The notes under the pieces were generated by a model, which was not told where the DNA came from, searched no databases, and saw only the letters and a list, made by a program, of their open reading frames with translations. From Gemmatimonadales bacterium (GTDB lineage: Bacteria > Gemmatimonadota > Gemmatimonadetes > Gemmatimonadales > GWC2-71-9), in NCBI GenBank assembly GCA_050733195.1, contig JBOHSH010000045.1, positions 16,088 to 80,087 of the forward strand: a DNA stretch of 64,000 nucleotides, in the 5' to 3' direction. Numbering within the stretch: position 1 is the first letter of the stretch; every line of letters starts with the position of its first letter. The translations under genes were made by a program, and so were the position numbers. Positions 18,772 to 60,153 of this stretch are shown piece by piece.

Positions 18772-19866
18772 GTGCGCGGCGTCGCGGTGCTGGGTTCGAC
18801 CGGATCCATCGGAGCGAGCACCCTCGCCGTGCTCGACCGCCATCGCGACCGCTTCCGGGTCGTGGCGCTGGCGGCCGGCTCCAACGGGCGGCTCCTCGCG
18901 GAGCAGATCGCCCACTGGGAGCCGGCGTTCGCCGCCCTCGTCTGCGACGCCGGGCCCGCCTGCCTCGTCCAGGCCGCGACCCATCCCGACGTGGACATCG
19001 TCGTCAACGCGGTGGTGGGCTTCGCCGGGCTCGAGGCCACGCTCGCCGCGCTCGAGGCCGGGAAGCGGGTGGCGCTCGCCAACAAGGAGTCGCTCGTCGT
19101 GGCGGGCGAGCTGGTGCTCGCCGCGGCGCGTTCGGGAGGTGGTGAGCTGGTGCCCGTGGACTCCGAGCACAGCGCGGTGCTCCAGTGTCTGGCGGGGAGC
19201 CGGGCCGCGCTCCGGCGGCTCATCCTCACCGCTTCCGGCGGGCCCTTCCGGGCGTGGGAGCCGTCGCGGCTCTCGGAGGCCACGGTTCCGGAGGCGCTCA
19301 ACCATCCCACCTGGCGGATGGGCAGCAAGATCACCGTCGACAGCGCCACGCTCGCGAACAAGGCCCTCGAGGTGATCGAGGCCCATCACCTCTACGGTCT
19401 CGACTTCGACCGGATCGAGGTGGTCGTCCATCCGCAGAGCATCGTTCACGCGTTCGTCGAGTTCTCCGACGGCAGCGTGCTCGGCCAGCTCGGATTCCCG
19501 TCGATGGAGCTGCCGATCCTCTACGCGCTCACCCATCCCGACCGGATCGACGACCCCGGGATCCGGCCGTTCGATCCGGTGAGCGCGGGACCGCTCACGT
19601 TCGAGCCGGTGCGGCGCGACGTCTTCCGCGCGTTCGACCTCGGGGTGCGCGCCGGCCGGACCGGCGGGACGGCGCCGGCGGTGTTCAACGCCGCGAACGA
19701 GGTGGCGGTCGGCGCCTTCCTCGCCGGAGCGATTCCCTTCGGCCGGATCCCCGACATCATCGACGAGACCCTGTCCAGGCACGTCCCCGGCGCGGTGACC
19801 GGCCTCGCGGCCGTCCAGGCCGCCGACGCGTGGGCCCGCGAGCGGGCGGCGGAGGTGACGGTGTGA
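18772..19866 (+). CDS. dxr: 1-deoxy-D-xylulose 5-phosphate reductoisomerase
   Basis: VAVLGSTGSIG, LANKESLV, DSEHSA and NHP.W.MG.KITVDSAT motifs. Confidence 0.95.
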   Translation: MRGVAVLGSTGSIGASTLAVLDRHRDRFRVVALAAGSNGRLLAEQIAHWEPAFAALVCDAGPACLVQAATHPDVDIVVNAVVGFAGLEATLAALEAGKRVALANKESLVVAGELVLAAARSGGGELVPVDSEHSAVLQCLAGSRAALRRLILTASGGPFRAWEPSRLSEATVPEALNHPTWRMGSKITVDSATLANKALEVIEAHHLYGLDFDRIEVVVHPQSIVHAFVEFSDGSVLGQLGFPSMELPILYALTHPDRIDDPGIRPFDPVSAGPLTFEPVRRDVFRAFDLGVRAGRTGGTAPAVFNAANEVAVGAFLAGAIPFGRIPDIIDETLSRHVPGAVTGLAAVQAADAWARERAAEVTV

Positions 19867-21236
19867 GCAGCGTTCTCATCAACGTCCTGGCGCTGATCGT
19901 CGTGCTCGGGGTGCTCGTGTTCGTGCACGAGCTCGGCCACTTCATCGCGGCGAAGTGGGCCGGCATCTACGTGCATCGCTTCTCGCTCGGACTCGGGCCG
20001 CCGATCCGTCGCCTGACCACCCGCCGCGGCGAGACCGAGTACTCGATCTCCTGGCTGCCGCTCGGCGGCTACGTGAAGATGGCGAGCAGGGAGGAGGATC
20101 CCACTGCCGAAGCGCTCGAGGGCGGCGCGGTGCACACGCCCGTCCCTCGCGATCGCGTCATGGAAGCGAAGCCGGTCTGGAAGCGGATGATCGTGATTCT
20201 GGCGGGCGTGGCGATGAACGCGCTCTTCGCCTGGCTCGTGTTCTCGGGACTCAACTGGGCCATCGGTCTTTCGGTCTATCCGGTCACGACGATCGGACGC
20301 GTGCACCAGGCTTCCCTCCCCGAGGGCGCGGAAGGGCTCGCGCGCCTCCAGCCCGGCGACCGGATCGTCCGCGTGGCCGGCCGCCGGACGGAATCGTGGG
20401 AAGCGGTGCAGCAGGCCCTCATCACCGCCTCGACCGACTCGATCCTCATCGAGACGGAGAGCGGGGCCCAGGTCGCGGTGCGCATCCACCGCGATGCCCT
20501 CGAAGCGCGCACCCGCGCGGCCGCGGCGATCGAGCCCTCCATCGCGCCCGTCATCGGACAGGTCACGGCGGGGCGTCCCGCGTCGCGGGCGGGCGTTGAA
20601 CCCGGCGACACCATCGTGTCGGTGAACGGCGACCCGATCGGGCAGTGGCGGGAGCTCGTCGAAGCGATCGAATCCCGGCCGGAGCAGGAGGTCACCCTCG
20701 TCGTGGGCCGCGCCGACGGGCGAAGGACGATCACGGCCCGGACGATCGCCGAAGAGACGCGGGACAGCGCGGGGCAACCGCGCCGCGTGGGCAAGCTCGG
20801 CCTCGGGCCGCGGCTCTTGGAGCATCACGAGCCGGTGTCCCTCGGACGCGCGGTCGTCCTCGGCGCGCGGCAGACGGCGACGGTCTCGACGCAGATCGTC
20901 CGGGTGGTTCGGGGGATGTTCAGCGGACGAGTGTCGACGCGGGAGGTCGGCGGGCCGATCGCCATCGGCGTCGCGGCGGGGGAGTCGGCTCAGCTCGGTC
21001 TCCCGTCTTTCCTGGCCTTCATGGCCACGATCTCCGTGAATCTCGCGGTGCTCAACCTCCTGCCCATTCCGGTGCTCGACGGCGGCCAGTTCCTGTTCCT
21101 GCTGGGAGAGGCGGTGCTGCGGCGGCCCCTGTCGCCCCGGCTCCGGGAGCGGCTGGTCCTCGTGGGGCTGATCCTGCTGGTCCTGCTGATGGTGCTGGCT
21201 TTCTCGAACGACATCCGGAGGCTGATTGGGTTCTGA
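19863..21236 (+). CDS. rseP: RIP metalloprotease RseP (site-2 protease)
   Basis: GTG 19863 gives VSSVLINVLALIVVLGVLVFVHELGHF (HExxH in TM1). PDZ region, and C-terminal NLLPIPVLDGG motif. Confidence 0.9.
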   Translation: MSSVLINVLALIVVLGVLVFVHELGHFIAAKWAGIYVHRFSLGLGPPIRRLTTRRGETEYSISWLPLGGYVKMASREEDPTAEALEGGAVHTPVPRDRVMEAKPVWKRMIVILAGVAMNALFAWLVFSGLNWAIGLSVYPVTTIGRVHQASLPEGAEGLARLQPGDRIVRVAGRRTESWEAVQQALITASTDSILIETESGAQVAVRIHRDALEARTRAAAAIEPSIAPVIGQVTAGRPASRAGVEPGDTIVSVNGDPIGQWRELVEAIESRPEQEVTLVVGRADGRRTITARTIAEETRDSAGQPRRVGKLGLGPRLLEHHEPVSLGRAVVLGARQTATVSTQIVRVVRGMFSGRVSTREVGGPIAIGVAAGESAQLGLPSFLAFMATISVNLAVLNLLPIPVLDGGQFLFLLGEAVLRRPLSPRLRERLVLVGLILLVLLMVLAFSNDIRRLIGF

Positions 21237-21278
21237 GTTCTGGGTTCTGAGTTCTGGGTTCTGAGTTCTGGGTTCTGG
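21230..21278 (+). repeat. tandem heptamer array (GTTCTGA/GTTCTGG) x7
   Basis: Read directly: GTTCTGA GTTCTGG GTTCTGA GTTCTGG GTTCTGA GTTCTGG GTTCTGG. The first unit contains the rseP stop codon (21234-21236). Confidence 0.9.
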
Positions 21279-21344
21279 TCCTTCCCTAACCCCTGACTCC
21301 CTGCCTTCCCCTAGCCTCCGGTGCCCACCCCGGTTATCTTATTG

Positions 21345-21353
21345 TGCTATATA
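21345..21353 (+). promoter_or_regulatory. candidate extended -10 promoter element for rpsO
   Basis: TGCTATATA (a TGnTATAAT-like extended -10) in an AT-rich patch 42 nt upstream of the rpsO ATG. No convincing -35. Pattern match only. Confidence 0.3.
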
Positions 21354-21394
21354 CTTTTCGGACTTTCGGCAAAGGTCACGGGGTGCCAGGCAGC

Positions 21395-21655
21395 ATGGGT
21401 TACGACAAGCACGGGGTGATGGTCAAGCACCGCCTGCACGAGACGGATACCGGCTCGGCCCGGGTGCAGGTGGCTCTCCTCACCGAGCGCATCAACTCGC
21501 TCACCGAGCACTTCCGGGTCCATATCAAGGATCACCATGGGCGGCGGGGCCTCCTCAAGATGGTCGGTACCCGCCGGCGTCTCCTGAATTTCTTGAAGAA
21601 CAACGACCTGGAGACGTATCGCGCGCTGATCCAGGAGCTCGGACTCCGGCACTAG
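21395..21655 (+). CDS. rpsO: 30S ribosomal protein S15
   Basis: [48 protein letters not shown] 21395 gives the expected approximately 17 aa before DTGS. The upstream part of ORF 21344.. was rejected. Confidence 0.9.
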
Positions 21656-37255: not shown

Positions 37256-38705
37256 GTCCAAGGGCCTCACTCCGCGCGGGCAGGATTTCAGCGCCTGGTA
37301 CAACGAGCTGATCCTCAGGGCCGAGCTGGCCGACTACAGCCCGGTGCGCGGCTGCATGGTGATCCGGCCGAACGGCTACGCCATCTGGGAGCAGATGCAG
37401 CAGGCCCTCGACCGGATGTTCAAGGACACCGGCCACGAGAACGCCTACTTCCCGCTCTTCATTCCGCAGAGCTTCCTCGCCAAGGAAGCGGAGCACGTGG
37501 AGGGGTTCGCCCCGGAGACGGCGGTGGTCACGCACGGCGGCGGCAAGGAGCTCGAGGAGCCGCTGGTGGTGCGGCCGACCTCCGAGACGATCATCTACGC
37601 GATGTTCGCCAAGTGGATCCAGAGCTGGCGGGATCTGCCGGTGCTGATGAACCAGTGGGCGAACGTGGTGCGATGGGAGCTCCGGACCCGGCTGTTCCTC
37701 CGTACCACCGAGTTCCTCTGGCAGGAGGGCCACACCGCGCACGCCACGGAGGCGGAGGCCGAAGCCGAGGCGCGCCTCATTCTGGGCCTCTACCGGCGCT
37801 TCATGGAAGAGTGGATGGCGATGCCCGTGCTGACGGGGCTCAAGACCGACAGCGAGCGGTTCGCGGGCGCGCTGCGGACCTATTCGCTCGAGGCGCTGAT
37901 GCAGGACAACAAGGCGCTGCAGGCCGGCACGAGCCACAACCTGGGACAGAACTTCGCGAAAGCGTTCGACGTGACCTTCCAGACGGCGGACGGCGGACTG
38001 GGACACGTCTGGAGCACGTCGTGGGGAGTGTCAACCCGGCTGGTGGGCGGCCTGATCATGACCCACGGCGACGACAACGGCCTGGTCTGCCCGCCGCGGC
38101 TGGCGCAGTGGCAGGTCGTCATCGTGCCGATCTGGAAGAACGACGCCGAGCGGGGCCAGGTCGCGGAGGCGGGCAGCCGGATTCAGCGGGAGCTGCACGA
38201 TGCCGGCGTCCGCGCGCACCTGGACCTGCGGGACGGGCTCAAGCCCGGCGCCAAGTACTACGAATGGGAAGGGCGGGGCGTGCCGCTCCGACTCGAGCTC
38301 GGGCCGCGGGATCTGGCCGGGCAGACCGTGATGCTCGCGAGGCGATTCGGCGGCGACGGGAAGAAGGAGGCCATCCCGATGGCCGGGATCGCCGGACGGA
38401 TCATCGCCGAGATGGACCGGATGCAGCGAGGCCTGCTGGACGCCGCGCGGACCCGGCGCGAGACCAACTCTCTTCGCGGGCCGCGGAGCCGCCAGGAGTT
38501 CATCGACTTTCTGGAGGGCACCGGCGGGTTCGTCTATGCCGGCTGGTGCGGCGATCCCGCCGTCGAGGCCGAGATCAAGGAGCAGACGAAGGCGAGCATC
38601 CGGGTCCTGCCCGACCAGGAGTTCCGGTCGCCGGAGGCACCGGCGACCTGCATCTGGACCGGGCGTCCCGCCGTCCACGAGGCGGTGTGGGCGAAGGCCT
38701 ACTGA
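37248..38705 (+). CDS. proS: proline--tRNA ligase (archaeal/eukaryote-like type, no INS editing domain)
   Basis: ATG 37248 gives MAESKGLTPRGQDFSAWYNELI. RPTSET, FLRTTEFLWQEGHT and GTSHNLG motifs. Ends in ...AKAY, the family's characteristic C-terminal Tyr. 8 nt overlap with hisS. Confidence 0.95.
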   Translation: MAESKGLTPRGQDFSAWYNELILRAELADYSPVRGCMVIRPNGYAIWEQMQQALDRMFKDTGHENAYFPLFIPQSFLAKEAEHVEGFAPETAVVTHGGGKELEEPLVVRPTSETIIYAMFAKWIQSWRDLPVLMNQWANVVRWELRTRLFLRTTEFLWQEGHTAHATEAEAEAEARLILGLYRRFMEEWMAMPVLTGLKTDSERFAGALRTYSLEALMQDNKALQAGTSHNLGQNFAKAFDVTFQTADGGLGHVWSTSWGVSTRLVGGLIMTHGDDNGLVCPPRLAQWQVVIVPIWKNDAERGQVAEAGSRIQRELHDAGVRAHLDLRDGLKPGAKYYEWEGRGVPLRLELGPRDLAGQTVMLARRFGGDGKKEAIPMAGIAGRIIAEMDRMQRGLLDAARTRRETNSLRGPRSRQEFIDFLEGTGGFVYAGWCGDPAVEAEIKEQTKASIRVLPDQEFRSPEAPATCIWTGRPAVHEAVWAKAY

Positions 38706-38740
38706 GGACGGCCGGGCGGGCGGACGGCCAGACGGCCGGA

Positions 38741-44834: not shown

Positions 44835-46178
44835 ATGTCTCTGTTGGAGCCGTTCTGGAGGTGGCTGCGCCGGGAGGAGCCGGCTGCGTGGGCGCCCGGC
44901 GACGGGCCGCCCGTGCTCGAATGGGTGAGGCGCGCCAACGCCGCGCAGGGCGCCTGGCTGGTCGGGTCGGGAACCCGGGAGACTTCGGCGCCGGCCGGGG
45001 GAATTCCGGCGGAGACGGATCGCCTCGTGCGCGTCCGGCTCGAGCAGCATCGCCTGGGCGACGCGCAGGGCGTCGAGCGTCTCGATCGCGGGTTGCTCGT
45101 CTACGCGTCGCTCGACGGACGGGCCGCGGCCCTGCTCCTGCCGGACGGAGCGTCGGCGTCGCGCCGCGAGCTCGCACGGCACGACCTCGCCCGGCTCGTC
45201 GACTACGACCGCTGGCGGCCGATCCTCGCCGAAGTCACCCGCCAGCAGGGCACGCCCGGAGAATCCGTCGAGAGCATCGCGCTCAGGCTCGCGCATCAGC
45301 TGGAACGCCAGCTGGGGGTCGAGGCGGCCGTGGCGCTTCCCCGGGGATCGGTCGTCGAGATCGCCGGAGTCTCGCTCCGCTCGGATCGGCGCCTCATGGG
45401 GACCGTCCTCGACGATTCCAGCCCTCTCGCCCGCGTGGCCAGGGGCCAGTCGGGCGACCTGGCCGGCGTCGACGATCCGCTCGGCGGCGCGATCGGCGAC
45501 CGCCGGAACCGCTGGGGCCTTGCCTACGTGGCACCCATCCCGTGGAGCGGGAGCCCGGTCGGGGCGGTGGCGGTCTGGTCCCCCAGCGGCACCGAGCCCC
45601 GAGGGGGGGCCCTGGCGGCGTTCCGCGCCACGCTCGACGCCGCCGGCCCGCGGCTCCAGGCGGCCACGGACCGCCGCACGCTCGCGGAGATGGCGATACG
45701 CGATCCGCTCACGGGCGCGCTCAACCGGCGCGGGCTGGACGAGCGACTCCGCTCCGTCGCGTCGGGTGTGGGTGCGCTGGTCTACGCCGACCTCGATCAC
45801 TTCAAGAAGCTCAACGACACCCTGGGCCACCCTGCCGGGGACCAGGCGCTCATCCACTTCGCCCGGCTGCTGGAGCAGGCGGTGCGCGACGGCGATGTCG
45901 TCGCACGCATCGGCGGGGAAGAGTTTGCCGTCTGGTTGCCGGGGGCGTCTCTCGAGCGGGGCCGCCAGGTGGCGGAGCGGGTGCGCCAGGCCTTCTCCTG
46001 GAGCGACTGGCGGTGGCAGGGTGAGCGATGGCCGCTGACGGCGTCGTTCGGCGTCGCCGCCTGTCCGGAGACCGCGCCACGAGTGGAGCTGCTCCCCGCG
46101 CAGGCCGACCGCGCCCTTTACACGGCCAAGAGGGAGGGGAGGGACCGGGTGGCGGTGGAGCAGGGAGTTAGGGACTAG
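44835..46178 (+). CDS. diguanylate cyclase (GGDEF) with uncharacterised N-terminal sensory region
   Basis: C-terminal DPLTGALNRRG, DLDHFKKLND, active site RIGGEEFAV and YTAKREGRDRV. The N-terminal approximately 285 aa are unassigned, possibly GAF-like. Confidence 0.85.
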   Translation: MSLLEPFWRWLRREEPAAWAPGDGPPVLEWVRRANAAQGAWLVGSGTRETSAPAGGIPAETDRLVRVRLEQHRLGDAQGVERLDRGLLVYASLDGRAAALLLPDGASASRRELARHDLARLVDYDRWRPILAEVTRQQGTPGESVESIALRLAHQLERQLGVEAAVALPRGSVVEIAGVSLRSDRRLMGTVLDDSSPLARVARGQSGDLAGVDDPLGGAIGDRRNRWGLAYVAPIPWSGSPVGAVAVWSPSGTEPRGGALAAFRATLDAAGPRLQAATDRRTLAEMAIRDPLTGALNRRGLDERLRSVASGVGALVYADLDHFKKLNDTLGHPAGDQALIHFARLLEQAVRDGDVVARIGGEEFAVWLPGASLERGRQVAERVRQAFSWSDWRWQGERWPLTASFGVAACPETAPRVELLPAQADRALYTAKREGRDRVAVEQGVRD

Positions 46179-46201
46179 GGACTGGGGACTGGGGACTAGG
46201 G
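46163..46201 (+). repeat. tandem heptamer array GGGACTR x4 plus partial units; G-quadruplex-type motif
   Basis: Read directly: GGGAGTTA GGGACTA GGGACTG GGGACTG GGGACTA GGG. The diguanylate cyclase stop TAG (46176-46178) spans the junction of the first and second full units. Confidence 0.85.
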
Positions 46202-46251: not shown

Positions 46252-46829
46252 ATGGCGATGAGCGGGCACGCTCACGCGCAGGCCGCCGACTCGGCGCTCG
46301 TGGCATGGGCCCGCGCGATTCACGACCGGGTCATCACGCTCGACACCCACGTCGACATCAACCCGGGAAACTTCACTCCGGCCCGGAACTACACCCAGCG
46401 CCTGTCGACGCAGGTGGATCTGCCCAAGATGGAAGAGGGCGGCCTGGACGCGGTGTTCCTCATCGTCTATGTCGGTGAGAACAGCGATCTCACGCCCGAC
46501 GGCTTCGCCCGAGCCCACGCCGCGGCGCTCGAGAAGTTCACGGCGATCCATCGGCTGACGAAGGAGCTGGCCCCCGACCGGATCGGTCTCGCCCTGACGG
46601 CGGCGGACGTGCGCCGCATCGCCGCCACGGGGAGGAAAGTGGCGCTCATCGGGGTGGGCGACTCGGCGACCCGGGCGGCGTATCAGGGCGAGCTGCAGGA
46701 GATCAACCGGCGCTCCCCCCCTATCGGGAGGCGGACATCGCCAAGCTCTGGTCGGGGAATCTGCTTCGGGTCATGGAGGCCGTCGAGCGCGTAGCCGCCG
46801 CATCCAAGCCAGTAGACGGAACCTTGTAA
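46252..46829 (+). pseudogene. remnant of an M19-family membrane dipeptidase gene (internal deletions plus frameshift)
   Basis: The first 135 aa of ORF 46252..46794 look like an M19 N-terminus (ITLDTHVDI, QVDLPKMEEGGLDAVF, KVALIGV). The central catalytic part is absent. A typical C-terminus (YREADIAKLWSGNLLRVMEAVE...) reads in another frame, 46722..46829, just after a C7 run (46715-46721). Total about 580 nt against roughly 1.1-1.2 kb expected. Confidence 0.55.
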
Positions 46830-59432: not shown

Positions 59433-59460
59433 CCGTTGACCGTTGACCGTTGACCGTTCA
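59433..59460 (-). repeat. tandem heptamer array (minus strand TGAACGG TCAACGG TCAACGG TCAACGG)
   Basis: Read directly; the plus strand reads CCGTTGA x3 then CCGTTCA. The first minus-strand unit contains the purQ stop codon. The array fills the purQ to zinc-ribbon spacer. Confidence 0.85.
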
Positions 59461-60153
59461 CCCCGCGGGCTGGAACGCGCCCCACTGGAGCAGGGAAGCG
59501 AACACCCGGTGCCCCGCGTCCGATCCGAGGACCGGATCCGCGAGGCGCTCGGGATGGGGCATCATCCCGACCACGTTCCCGGCGGCGTTGCAGATGCCCG
59601 CGATGTCGCGCAACGAGCCGTTCGGATTGGCGGGGAAGTCGGGACTGCCGCCGATGTACCGGAGCACCACGCGGCGCTCGCTCTCGAGCTGGTCGAGGAC
59701 GGCGTCCGGCGCCACGTAACGGCCCTCGCCGTGGCCGATCGGGATCCGGATGACCTCCCGGTCGCGGTACGCGGACGTAAAGGCGGTGTCCGTCCGCTCG
59801 ATCCGGACGTCCACCGGGCGCGACAGATACTTGAGGCCGGCGTTGCGCATGAGGGCGCCGGGAAGCAGCCCCGCCTCGCAGAGAATCTGGAAGCCGTTGC
59901 AGACGCCGAGCACGGGGCCTCCGCGCTCTGCGTGCCGGCGCACGGCGGCCATGACGGGCGCGAACCGGGCGATGGCGCCGCTCCGGAGATAGTCGCCGTA
60001 GCTGAAACCGCCCGGCAGGAGCACGGCGTCGGCGCCGGCGAGATCGCTCTCGCGATGGAAGTGGTAGAACGGGTCTCCGCCGGCGCGCTCGACCGCCCGG
60101 AAGAGCTCGGGCTCGCAGTTGCTGCCGGGAAACCGGAGCACCGCGACGCGCAT
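59458..60153 (-). CDS. purQ: phosphoribosylformylglycinamidine synthase subunit PurQ (glutaminase)
   Basis: [36 protein letters not shown] (nucleophile Cys) and MMPHPER. 231 aa. The ATG at 60153 was confirmed. Confidence 0.95.

What the first reader, a model, noticed from the sequence alone, without database searches (positions are those of the whole stretch)
21230..21278. Heptamer tandem array starting in the rseP stop codon, placing TGA in all three frames
Seven perfect heptamers alternate GTTCTGA/GTTCTGG, which is equivalent to 3.5 copies of a 14-mer. They begin inside the last codons of rseP (GGG TTC TGA) and continue 42 nt beyond the stop.

Because the period is 14 nt, TGA recurs at 21234, 21248 and 21262, once in each reading frame. 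The tract is much less GC-rich than its surroundings.

Two other arrays in this window (46163..46201 and 59433..59460) are also heptameric, and each also begins with the stop codon of the upstream gene. Three out of three is unlikely to be coincidence.

From memory, heptanucleotide tandem arrays (STRR elements, e.g. CCCCAGT, TTGGTCA, CAACAGT) are known from heterocystous cyanobacteria. I know of no described equivalent in a high-GC heterotroph. Possible roles include a slippage-prone element, a protein or RNA binding array, or a frame-independent translation stop pad.
Basis: partly seen in the sequence, partly recalled or inferred. Interest (0 to 1): 0.6.

Follow-up and report, generated by a model that had tools for sequence, protein, structure and literature searches.

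The report
Heptamer microsatellite at rseP stop codon
The 7-base repeat after rseP is a real, length-variable microsatellite, one of about 400 such arrays in this Gemmatimonadales genome; it belongs to a repeat class already described in Xanthomonas and cyanobacteria, and its stop codons in all three frames look like a by-product rather than a function.

Summary
Seven perfect GTTCTGR units lie at 21230-21278, the first supplies the rseP stop, and TGA falls in all three frames.

It is not a local oddity. The genome has about 400 period-7/8 arrays against 17 of period 6. Some 46% touch a stop codon.

The stop-pad reading is not supported:
- An excess of sense-strand stops exists only where an array overlaps an ORF end, where it is true by definition.
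- Relatives carry stop-free units at the same rseP site.
- A fourth array in this window (38706-38740) abuts a TGA and has no stop in its unit.

A second assembly of the same species has three extra units here, so the array is real and slippage-prone.

The "no equivalent in a high-GC heterotroph" claim fails. Xanthomonas GGGAATC arrays (Rehm 2015) show the same stop-codon bias and inverted pairs. MacGregor 2015 explains the three-frame stops.

Wider context:
- Arrays often form G-rich-first hairpin pairs.
- All four PF05635 four-helix-bundle genes of this genome sit in such hairpins, and one has GTTCTGR arms.
- This scan has already noted that gene-plus-arms cassette many times on other DNA.

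The parts
21228..21278 (+). Heptamer array (GTTCTGR) of 7.4 units. The G-rich strand is on the rseP sense strand. It is a solo array with no complementary arm.
   Evidence: The RNA fold of 21222-21335 is no better than shuffles (z -0.61). It is three units longer in GCA_975101925.1.
19863..21236 (+). rseP-like gene (M50 peptidase with PDZ). Its last two codons and TGA stop (21234-21236) are the first array unit.
   Evidence: Pfam Peptidase_M50 at 2.9e-61 and PDZ_6. The C-terminus ...SNDIRRLIGF* has the same length as ...SNDIRRLLGV* in relative L001; compare GGCGTCTGA with GGGTTCTGA.
21279..21320 (+). Degenerate C-rich tract with a rough 7-8 nt period (TCCTTCCC TAACCCC TGACTCCC TGCCTTCCCC TAGCCTCC). 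It fills the space up to the presumed rpsO promoter. It is not complementary to the GTTCTGR array.
   Evidence: Read. TRF did not call it, so this is inference. Its position relative to the conserved promoter/leader block comes from the alignment by eye with relatives.
21395..21655 (+). rpsO (ribosomal protein S15), the downstream gene.
   Evidence: Pfam Ribosomal_S15 at 8.7e-33. The exact protein was found in a second assembly.
46169..46201 (+). TAGGGAC/TGGGGAC heptamer array spanning the stop (TAG 46176-46178) of a GGDEF gene. The G-rich strand is on the sense strand.
   Evidence: It is identical in GCA_975101925.1.
59433..59462 (-). TCAACGG heptamer array filling the 29-nt gap between the purQ stop (59460-59458) and the ATG (59428) of a zinc-ribbon gene.
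   Evidence: It is identical in two other assemblies.
38706..38740 (+). Octamer array (GGACGGCC GGGCGGGC GGACGGCC AGACGGCC) starting directly after a TGA stop (38703-38705). The unit holds no stop triplet.

Best explanation
The tract is a heptanucleotide microsatellite, (GTTCTGR)n. It is one solo copy of a species-specific family of about 113 arrays, within about 400 period-7/8 arrays in this Gemmatimonadales genome.

Shown:
- It is real and it changes length in whole units between strains.
- The arrays are overwhelmingly intergenic.
- They sit hard against stop codons with the G-rich strand on the sense strand of the gene that ends there.
- More than a third form G-rich-first inverted pairs that fold into long hairpins.
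- All four PF05635 (S23p/Avd-like four-helix-bundle) genes of the genome lie in the loops of such hairpins. One has GTTCTGR arms.

Inferred:
- The rseP array is a gene-less, partner-less relative of those IVS-like hairpin cassettes.
- It was laid down in the only tolerated space at this locus, the few bases between the rseP stop and the rpsO promoter.
- It has since grown and shrunk by replication slippage.
- It has crept over the last two codons of rseP. That is tolerated because the GTTCTGA variant supplies an in-frame TGA at once and keeps the protein's length.
- TGA in all three frames follows from a stop-bearing unit whose period is coprime to 3. It is a filter on which arrays can overlap a gene end, not a selected stop pad.
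For: - Genome-wide class: TRF finds 295 period-7 and 108 period-8 loci against 17 of period 6. Of these, 298 of 403 have under 25% in predicted CDS in a genome that is 88% coding.
- Species-specific unit: 263 matches to four GTTCTGR units in G000 and none in 40 relatives, including 24 congeners.
- Length polymorphism: +21 nt (GTTCGGG GTTCGGG GTTCTGG) with 1 SNP in about 270 nt of flank.
- Same site, other units: relatives have 7/8-mer arrays of different sequence right after the rseP stop. These are often inverted pairs around a variable loop, and in L011, L013 and L014 the loop holds a PF05635 gene.
- Little free space: relatives without arrays have only about 6-20 nt between the stop and the promoter block.
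- Stop content is a by-product.
- Strand rule: within 15 nt of a stop the G-rich strand is on the sense strand 165 v 36. Stop-free units show the same, 39 v 6.
- Hairpin pairs: 61 of 63 are G-rich-first, with median z -9.6.
- PF05635: 4 of 4 genes in G000 are flanked by inverted arrays, against 24 of 3023 genes in general. Elsewhere in the order, 29 of 30 sampled loci are flanked on both sides, as are 26 of 29 in congeners.
- Other phyla and cultured isolates show the same layout.
- Published: heptamers lie in the stem of the Coxiella IVS.
Against: - No mechanism of spread is known. There is no transposase, no target-site duplication and no RVT_1 gene in the 98% complete assembly.
- The window's array has no complementary arm. 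Its descent from a cassette rests only on the shared unit.
- The tight fit to stop codons and the G-rich-on-sense rule could reflect a function in transcription or RNA processing rather than mere tolerance.
- Gene positions come from my own crude caller.
- Only one of the three arrays compared between strains differs in length.
Confidence: 0.65

Rival explanations
1. Frame-independent stop pad. The array is kept because it places TGA in all three frames after rseP and so catches read-through or frameshifted ribosomes.
For: TGA lies in all three frames within 31 nt. Among arrays near stops, 80 of 216 close all three frames on the sense strand against 41 on the antisense strand. The longer allele in the second assembly still closes all three frames.
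Against: - The bias is confined to arrays that overlap the ORF end, where it holds by definition. There is none for arrays 1-10 nt downstream.
- 119 of 403 arrays have no stop triplet on either strand.
- Orthologous rseP sites in relatives carry stop-free units.
- The octamer array at 38706 abuts a TGA without any stop of its own.
- The most common unit variant, GTTCTGG, has no stop.
- MacGregor 2015 gives the trivial explanation.
Confidence: 0.06
2. Polar transcription or RNA-processing element. G-rich arrays on the sense strand just after a stop form G-quadruplexes, R-loops or, when paired, RNase III hairpins. These would end, insulate or process the upstream transcript, here separating rseP from rpsO.
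For: - The strand rule is strong and distance-dependent: G-rich on sense 165 v 36 next to stops, reversed at 16-60 nt.
- Hairpin pairs are very stable.
- RNase III cuts at the first heptamer of the Coxiella IVS stem.
- Xanthomonas units fold into G4 structures in vitro.
- Arrays are about 1.8-fold enriched between convergent genes.
Against: - The window allele has G3 tracts only every 14 nt, so loops are 11 nt. The conspecific allele has a canonical G4 run. G4 capacity is therefore not conserved at this locus.
- There is no hairpin (z -0.61) and no terminator-like site.
- Many relatives lack any array at this site.
- Rehm et al. found no clear effect on transcript ends or expression.
Confidence: 0.2
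3. Contingency (phase-variation) switch. Gain or loss of units toggles expression of rseP or rpsO.
For: The period is not a multiple of 3, and copy number differs between strains.
Against: - The first unit supplies the in-frame stop in both alleles, so unit changes downstream cannot shift the rseP frame.
- The array lies upstream of the whole rpsO promoter block rather than between its -35 and -10 regions.
- rseP and rpsO are housekeeping genes.
- Hundreds of arrays sit next to unrelated genes.
Confidence: 0.04
4. Assembly artefact or chance.
For: Short-read MAG assemblies can mis-build repeats. Here 61 arrays lie at contig ends.
Against: The same array sits in the same place in an independent assembly with near-identical flanks. 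Arrays 2 and 3 are identical in two or three assemblies, one of them a Logan contig. A perfect 49-nt periodic tract cannot arise by chance.
Confidence: 0.01

Closest known systems
G-rich heptamer repeats of Xanthomonas (GGGAATC) and Nostoc PCC 7120 (GGGGA(C/T)T), Rehm et al. 2015, PMC4692102
   Same: - Heptamer tandem arrays in hundreds of copies, over-represented between genes.
- A strong bias to lie within 50 bp of, or overlap, the stop codon with the G-rich strand on the coding strand.
- Many convergent inverted pairs.
- Copy-number differences between related strains.
- A high-GC heterotroph host.
- The crystallised PF05635 protein XCC0516 sits next to one of these arrays.
   Different: - The unit sequence differs, and there are many unit families (about 40) in one genome, including octamers.
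- The window array has G3 tracts only every 14 nt, so it is not a canonical G4 motif.
- The host phylum is Gemmatimonadota.
STRR (short tandemly repeated repetitive) heptamers of heterocystous cyanobacteria
   Same: Dispersed tandem heptamers that are lineage-specific in sequence and have no established function. PF05635 genes on Nostoc and Anabaena plasmids are flanked by such arrays.
   Different: The host is not cyanobacterial and the units differ. Membership is by analogy only.
TAACTGA direct repeats of marine Beggiatoaceae, MacGregor 2015, PMC4679880
   Same: An intergenic heptamer whose forward orientation gives stops in all three frames. It can therefore only overlap the very end of an ORF.
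   Different: Those repeats lie mostly just upstream of start codons in forward orientation. They have 2-6 copies of a single unit and rarely form inverted pairs.
ORF-bearing 23S rRNA intervening sequences (Coxiella, Leptospira; S23p/PF05635), Warrier et al. 2016, PMC4990558
   Same: A long stem made of terminal inverted repeats that contain variable tandem heptamers around a four-helix-bundle ORF. G000 has four cassettes of the same layout, one with GTTCTGR arms. An Azospirillum 23S IVS shows the same heptamer arms.
   Different: The rseP array has neither the gene nor a complementary arm, and it is not in rRNA.

Membership tests
Dispersed intergenic heptamer SSR class (Mrazek 2007; Rehm 2015) | Tandem head-to-tail units of 7 nt, present in many copies per genome and in excess over other periods | tested here: met
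   295 period-7 loci against 17 of period 6 and 25 of period 9
Dispersed intergenic heptamer SSR class (Mrazek 2007; Rehm 2015) | Over-represented in non-coding DNA, close to or overlapping stop codons, with the G-rich strand on the coding strand | tested here: met
   298 of 403 arrays are mostly outside CDS. 46% touch a stop. G-rich on sense 165 v 36.
Dispersed intergenic heptamer SSR class (Mrazek 2007; Rehm 2015) | Copy number varies between related strains | tested here: met
   +3 units in GCA_975101925.1. Arrays 2 and 3 are unchanged.
Xanthomonas/Nostoc GGGNATC quadruplex repeats | Unit GGGNATC, with four or more G3 tracts separated by short loops | tested here: not met
   The unit is GTTCTGR. 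In the window allele G3 tracts recur every 14 nt.
Cyanobacterial STRR | Occurs in heterocystous cyanobacteria with units such as CCCCAGT, TTGGTCA, CAACAGT | tested here: not met
   The host is a Gemmatimonadales MAG. Only 3 arrays in the genome have the unit CCCCAGT.
PF05635 hairpin cassette (IVS-like) | Two complementary inverted arrays enclosing a four-helix-bundle gene | tested here: not met
   There is no complementary arm and no gene at 21228-21394. The unit is shared with the cassette at C134:10222-10808.
Contingency-locus SSR (phase variation) | The repeat lies inside a reading frame or between the -35 and -10 regions, so unit changes switch expression | tested here: not met
   The in-frame stop is in the first unit of both alleles, and the array lies upstream of the promoter block.
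Intrinsic terminator / REP-type palindrome | A stable hairpin, with a U tract for terminators | tested here: not met
   Fold z -0.61. No terminator-like site was found.
Known RNA families (Rfam) | A match to a curated covariance model | tested here: not met
   No match at E <= 1 in 21100-21500

The most novel reading that the evidence does not exclude
Solo arrays such as the one at the rseP stop would be the scattered, gene-less arms of a class of IVS-like hairpin cassettes that I could not find described in print.

In this reading each PF05635 (S23p/Avd-like) four-helix-bundle protein recognises its own 7-8 nt unit. By a mechanism still unknown, it seeds that unit at gene ends across the genome, with a fixed polarity (G-rich arm 5', on the sense strand after stop codons).

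This would explain the long-noted excess of heptamer repeats in bacteria, including STRR and the Xanthomonas G4 repeats. It would also give the S23p family a function.

The scan has already raised the cassette itself many times on other DNA. What this genome adds:
- Its four cassettes carry four of its major dispersed unit families.
- The polarity rule also holds for solo arrays.
- Sampled genomes without PF05635 had no period-7/8 arrays.
Probability: 0.3. Interest if true: 0.8.

Novelty: new member of a known kind. Interest (0 to 1): 0.38.

Why it matters
On its own the rseP array is an ordinary member of a repeat class that has been in print since 2007-2015, so the headline idea of a stop pad should be dropped.

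What is worth keeping is the pattern it belongs to. In this phylum the arrays obey a strict polarity and hug stop codons. They turn over in sequence while keeping their place: the same rseP site carries different units in different species. They also share units with the hairpin arms around four-helix-bundle genes of the rRNA-IVS/Avd family.

If that link is causal, it would explain why 7-base repeats are the commonest long microsatellite in bacteria. It would also point to a function for a protein family with solved structures but no known role.

In practice these arrays break short-read assemblies (61 lie at contig ends). They also shift called gene ends, which matters for annotation of such MAGs.

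Tried and rejected
I used exact-protein look-ups in other assemblies instead.
- Hairpin or terminator at the window array: the RNA fold is no better than shuffles and there is no terminator-like or sigma-70-like site.
- Known RNA family, including an S15 leader: none found.
- Telomerase-like or retroelement synthesis of the units: no RVT_1 domain in the genome. I dropped this as a working idea, although the G-first polarity first suggested 3'-end addition.
- First orientation test (unit strand against transcription in co-oriented gaps): it looked balanced. That was misleading, because arrays next to stops and arrays next to starts have opposite orientation. The split by distance shows the real rule.
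- MITE-like element: loops of the 63 hairpin pairs share no obvious sequence. No target duplications were looked for systematically.
- Gene orientation relative to arm polarity: this is uninformative, because a G-first pair reads the same on both strands.
- The 'of' option of the genome search does not accept a locus id. I reached other phyla through handles instead.

Full report
**1. The observation**

The window reads GTTCTGA GTTCTGG GTTCTGA GTTCTGG GTTCTGA GTTCTGG GTTCTGG at 21230-21278. TRF gives period 14, 3.6 copies, 100% match, and period 7, 7.4 copies.

The ORF that ends here (19863-21236) is an M50 peptidase with a PDZ domain, that is RseP. The next gene is rpsO. rseP ends GGG TTC TGA, so the array supplies its last two codons and its stop.

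TGA starts at 21234, 21248 and 21262, one in each frame. GC drops to 0.53-0.60.

- At 46169-46201 the in-frame TAG of a GGDEF gene is in the second unit.
- At 59433-59462 the genes are on the minus strand. The array starts with purQ's TGA and ends 4 nt before the next ATG.

A fourth array was missed. GGACGGCC-type octamers at 38706-38740 start directly after a TGA, and the unit holds no stop.

**2. Real, and variable**

The exact S15 protein is also encoded in a separate assembly, GCA_975101925.1. Its rseP-rpsO spacer aligns with one SNP in about 270 nt. It carries exactly 21 extra bases inside the array: GTTCGGG GTTCGGG GTTCTGG. The array is therefore not an artefact, and it changes by whole units.

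Arrays 2 and 3 are identical in that assembly, and array 3 is also identical in a Logan contig.

**3. A genome-wide class**

The window lies in a 3.69-Mb, 70% GC, 286-contig genome. Named relatives place it in the Gemmatimonadales.

TRF at score 45 or more finds 295 period-7 and 108 period-8 loci, against 17 of period 6 and 25 of period 9. The unit families are few and related by strand and rotation:
- GTTCTGG/GTTCTGA, about 113 arrays
- GGGGAAC, 55
- GACGGTT, 33
- TAGGGAC and TAGGGGC
- TAGGGAGC-type and GACGGCCR-type octamers

With a simple codon-usage gene caller (3023 genes, 88% coding), 298 of 403 arrays have less than a quarter of their length in CDS.

Four GTTCTGR units in a row occur 263 times in this genome. 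They occur nowhere in 40 relatives, 24 of them in the same genus.

**4. The stop-codon link and the stop-pad idea**

The link is real. Of 342 arrays with two called neighbours, 156 touch or overlap a stop codon and 43 touch a start. In co-oriented gaps the median distance is 1 nt to the upstream stop and 42 nt to the downstream start.

The stop content of the units does not behave like a selected feature:
- Arrays that carry more stop triplets on the sense strand than on the antisense strand dominate only where the array overlaps the ORF end (33 v 2 in co-oriented gaps, 19 v 1 in convergent gaps). There an ORF must by definition end at the first in-frame stop. A stop-free orientation would add a long tail to the protein.
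- For arrays lying 1-10 nt beyond the stop there is no bias (13 v 8 and 4 v 5).
- 119 of 403 arrays have no stop triplet on either strand.
- At the orthologous rseP site, relatives carry GGCGGACC, AGGCGGTC, GGACGGAA, GCGGGACA and other units, most of them stop-free, starting 0-6 nt after the stop.
- MacGregor (2015) made the same point for TAACTGA repeats.

**5. Why exactly here**

Relatives without arrays have an rseP-rpsO spacer of only 85-120 nt. Almost all of it is a conserved promoter and leader block (...TTGCC/TTGTCC... TTATTCT... GCTACAACGGATTACGACGC) that begins 6-20 nt after the stop. The only space that tolerates an insertion is thus right behind the stop.

RseP of a closer relative ends ...SNDIRRLLGV* (GGC GTC TGA). 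The window's protein ends ...SNDIRRLIGF* (GGG TTC TGA). It has the same length, with 7 of 9 bases shared. The array has therefore replaced the native end without changing protein length, and microhomology may have helped.

**6. Polarity and hairpins**

Within 15 nt of a stop codon the G-rich strand of the array is on the sense strand of the gene that ends there in 165 of 201 cases. For units with no stop triplet the count is 39 v 6. At 16-60 nt the orientation is reversed, 4 v 41.

This reflects a fixed handedness. There are 63 pairs of complementary arrays with loops of 4-73 nt. In 61 of them the G-rich arm is 5' on either strand. They fold with a median of -76.5 kcal/mol and a median z of -9.6.

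Rehm et al. report the same geometry in Xanthomonas: the coding strand after stops, the non-coding strand before starts, and 70-75 convergent pairs.

The window's array is followed by a degenerate C-rich tract of another family, so it is G-first but not complementary. The region folds no better than shuffles (z -0.61). There is no terminator-like site and no Rfam match.

**7. The four-helix-bundle link**

The genome has four PF05635 (23S_rRNA_IVP) genes. All four lie in the loops of G-first inverted array pairs. Their arms are TAGGGAC/TAGGGGC, GTTCTGR, GACGGCCR and GGGGAAC, which are four of the main dispersed families. Only 24 of 3023 genes have arrays near both ends.

The same layout recurs widely:
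- Across the order, 105 of 121 genomes have such genes.
- 30 of 30 sampled loci have inverted flanks, 29 of them with 7/8-nt arrays on both sides, each with its own unit.
- 26 of 29 loci in congeners are flanked on both sides. None has GTTCTGR arms.
- It appears in Planctomycetota, Bacteroidales and Chloroflexota MAGs.
- It appears in cultured isolates: Nostoc, Anabaena, Trichormus, Picosynechococcus, Gemmatirosa, and a true 23S rRNA IVS of Azospirillum.

Supporting details:
- The closest solved structure is XCC0516 of Xanthomonas campestris. Rehm's supplement lists a GGGAATC array overlapping its annotated start.
- Warrier et al. (2016) describe variable tandem heptamers in the RNase III stem of the Coxiella IVS.
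- Protein identity falls as unit distance grows (Spearman -0.48, permutation p 5e-4). This is confounded by common descent.
- In samples of 45-100 kb per genome, seven genomes without PF05635 had no period-7/8 arrays in 523 kb. Seven genomes with PF05635 had 24 in 565 kb, found in five of the seven. The samples are small and the genomes are related.
- No reverse transcriptase domain is present.

The scan's own notes show that this cassette has been raised many times before on other DNA. They also show that a later check put the 'mobile insert' reading at about even odds, with no enzyme, no target duplication and no observed movement. I treat the link as context and as the bold reading, not as settled.

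**8. Verdict**

The array is an ordinary member of a described class of bacterial heptamer microsatellites, here in a phylum where I found no published account. The stop-pad idea is not supported, and slippage is supported.

Two things remain unexplained: the strict G-first polarity, and how one unit comes to occupy a hundred sites in one species while the same sites carry other units in its relatives.

Noticed in passing
It starts directly after a TGA stop (38703-38705) and ends about 1 nt before a GTG that may start the next gene. The unit has no stop triplet.
   Followed up: partly
window 21320-21394, and L009-L060 upstream of rpsO: A conserved block precedes rpsO across Gemmatimonadales...TTATTCTNCCGTGCTACAACGGATTACGACGC... 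It is probably the promoter plus an S15 leader. It has no Rfam match and could be an undescribed S15 autoregulatory leader.
   Followed up: no
G000 genome-wide (e.g. C163:27716-27885, C134:10222-10808): 61 of 63 inverted array pairs have the G-rich arm 5' on either strand. The same holds for 44 of 49 strongly skewed PF05635 cassettes in other genomes. A small lineage with AGCCATC/CCTTCAG-type arms is reversed. I have no explanation for this polarity.
   Followed up: partly
L010, L015, L026, L027 (rseP-rpsO spacer of relatives): In some relatives the loop between the inverted arrays at this site holds a long GC-rich palindrome (GTCACCCTGAGCGCAGCGAAGGGGGCATGCC...) instead of a gene. It looks like a separate REP-like element that lands in the same hairpin loops.
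   Followed up: no
L011, L013, L014; remnant in L023: At the orthologous rseP-rpsO site these relatives carry a PF05635 four-helix-bundle gene on the opposite strand between inverted octamer arrays (GGCGGACC ... GGTCCGCC). L023 keeps the arms and what looks like a decayed piece of the gene.
   Followed up: partly
G000 contig ends: 61 of 403 arrays lie at contig ends, so these repeats are a main cause of fragmentation in this 286-contig assembly. Array counts are therefore lower bounds.
   Followed up: no
window 46252-46794: The M19 dipeptidase ORF after the TAGGGAC array is only 180 aa and matches just the first third of the Pfam model (2-113 of 319). It may be broken or frameshifted. The second assembly aa.
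   Followed up: no
Plasmid collection: Among 72,556 plasmids, homologues of this genome's four-helix-bundle protein are almost confined to cyanobacteria, mostly heterocystous ones. These are the classic STRR hosts. They are often wedged between cas genes or between subunits of one enzyme.
   Followed up: partly
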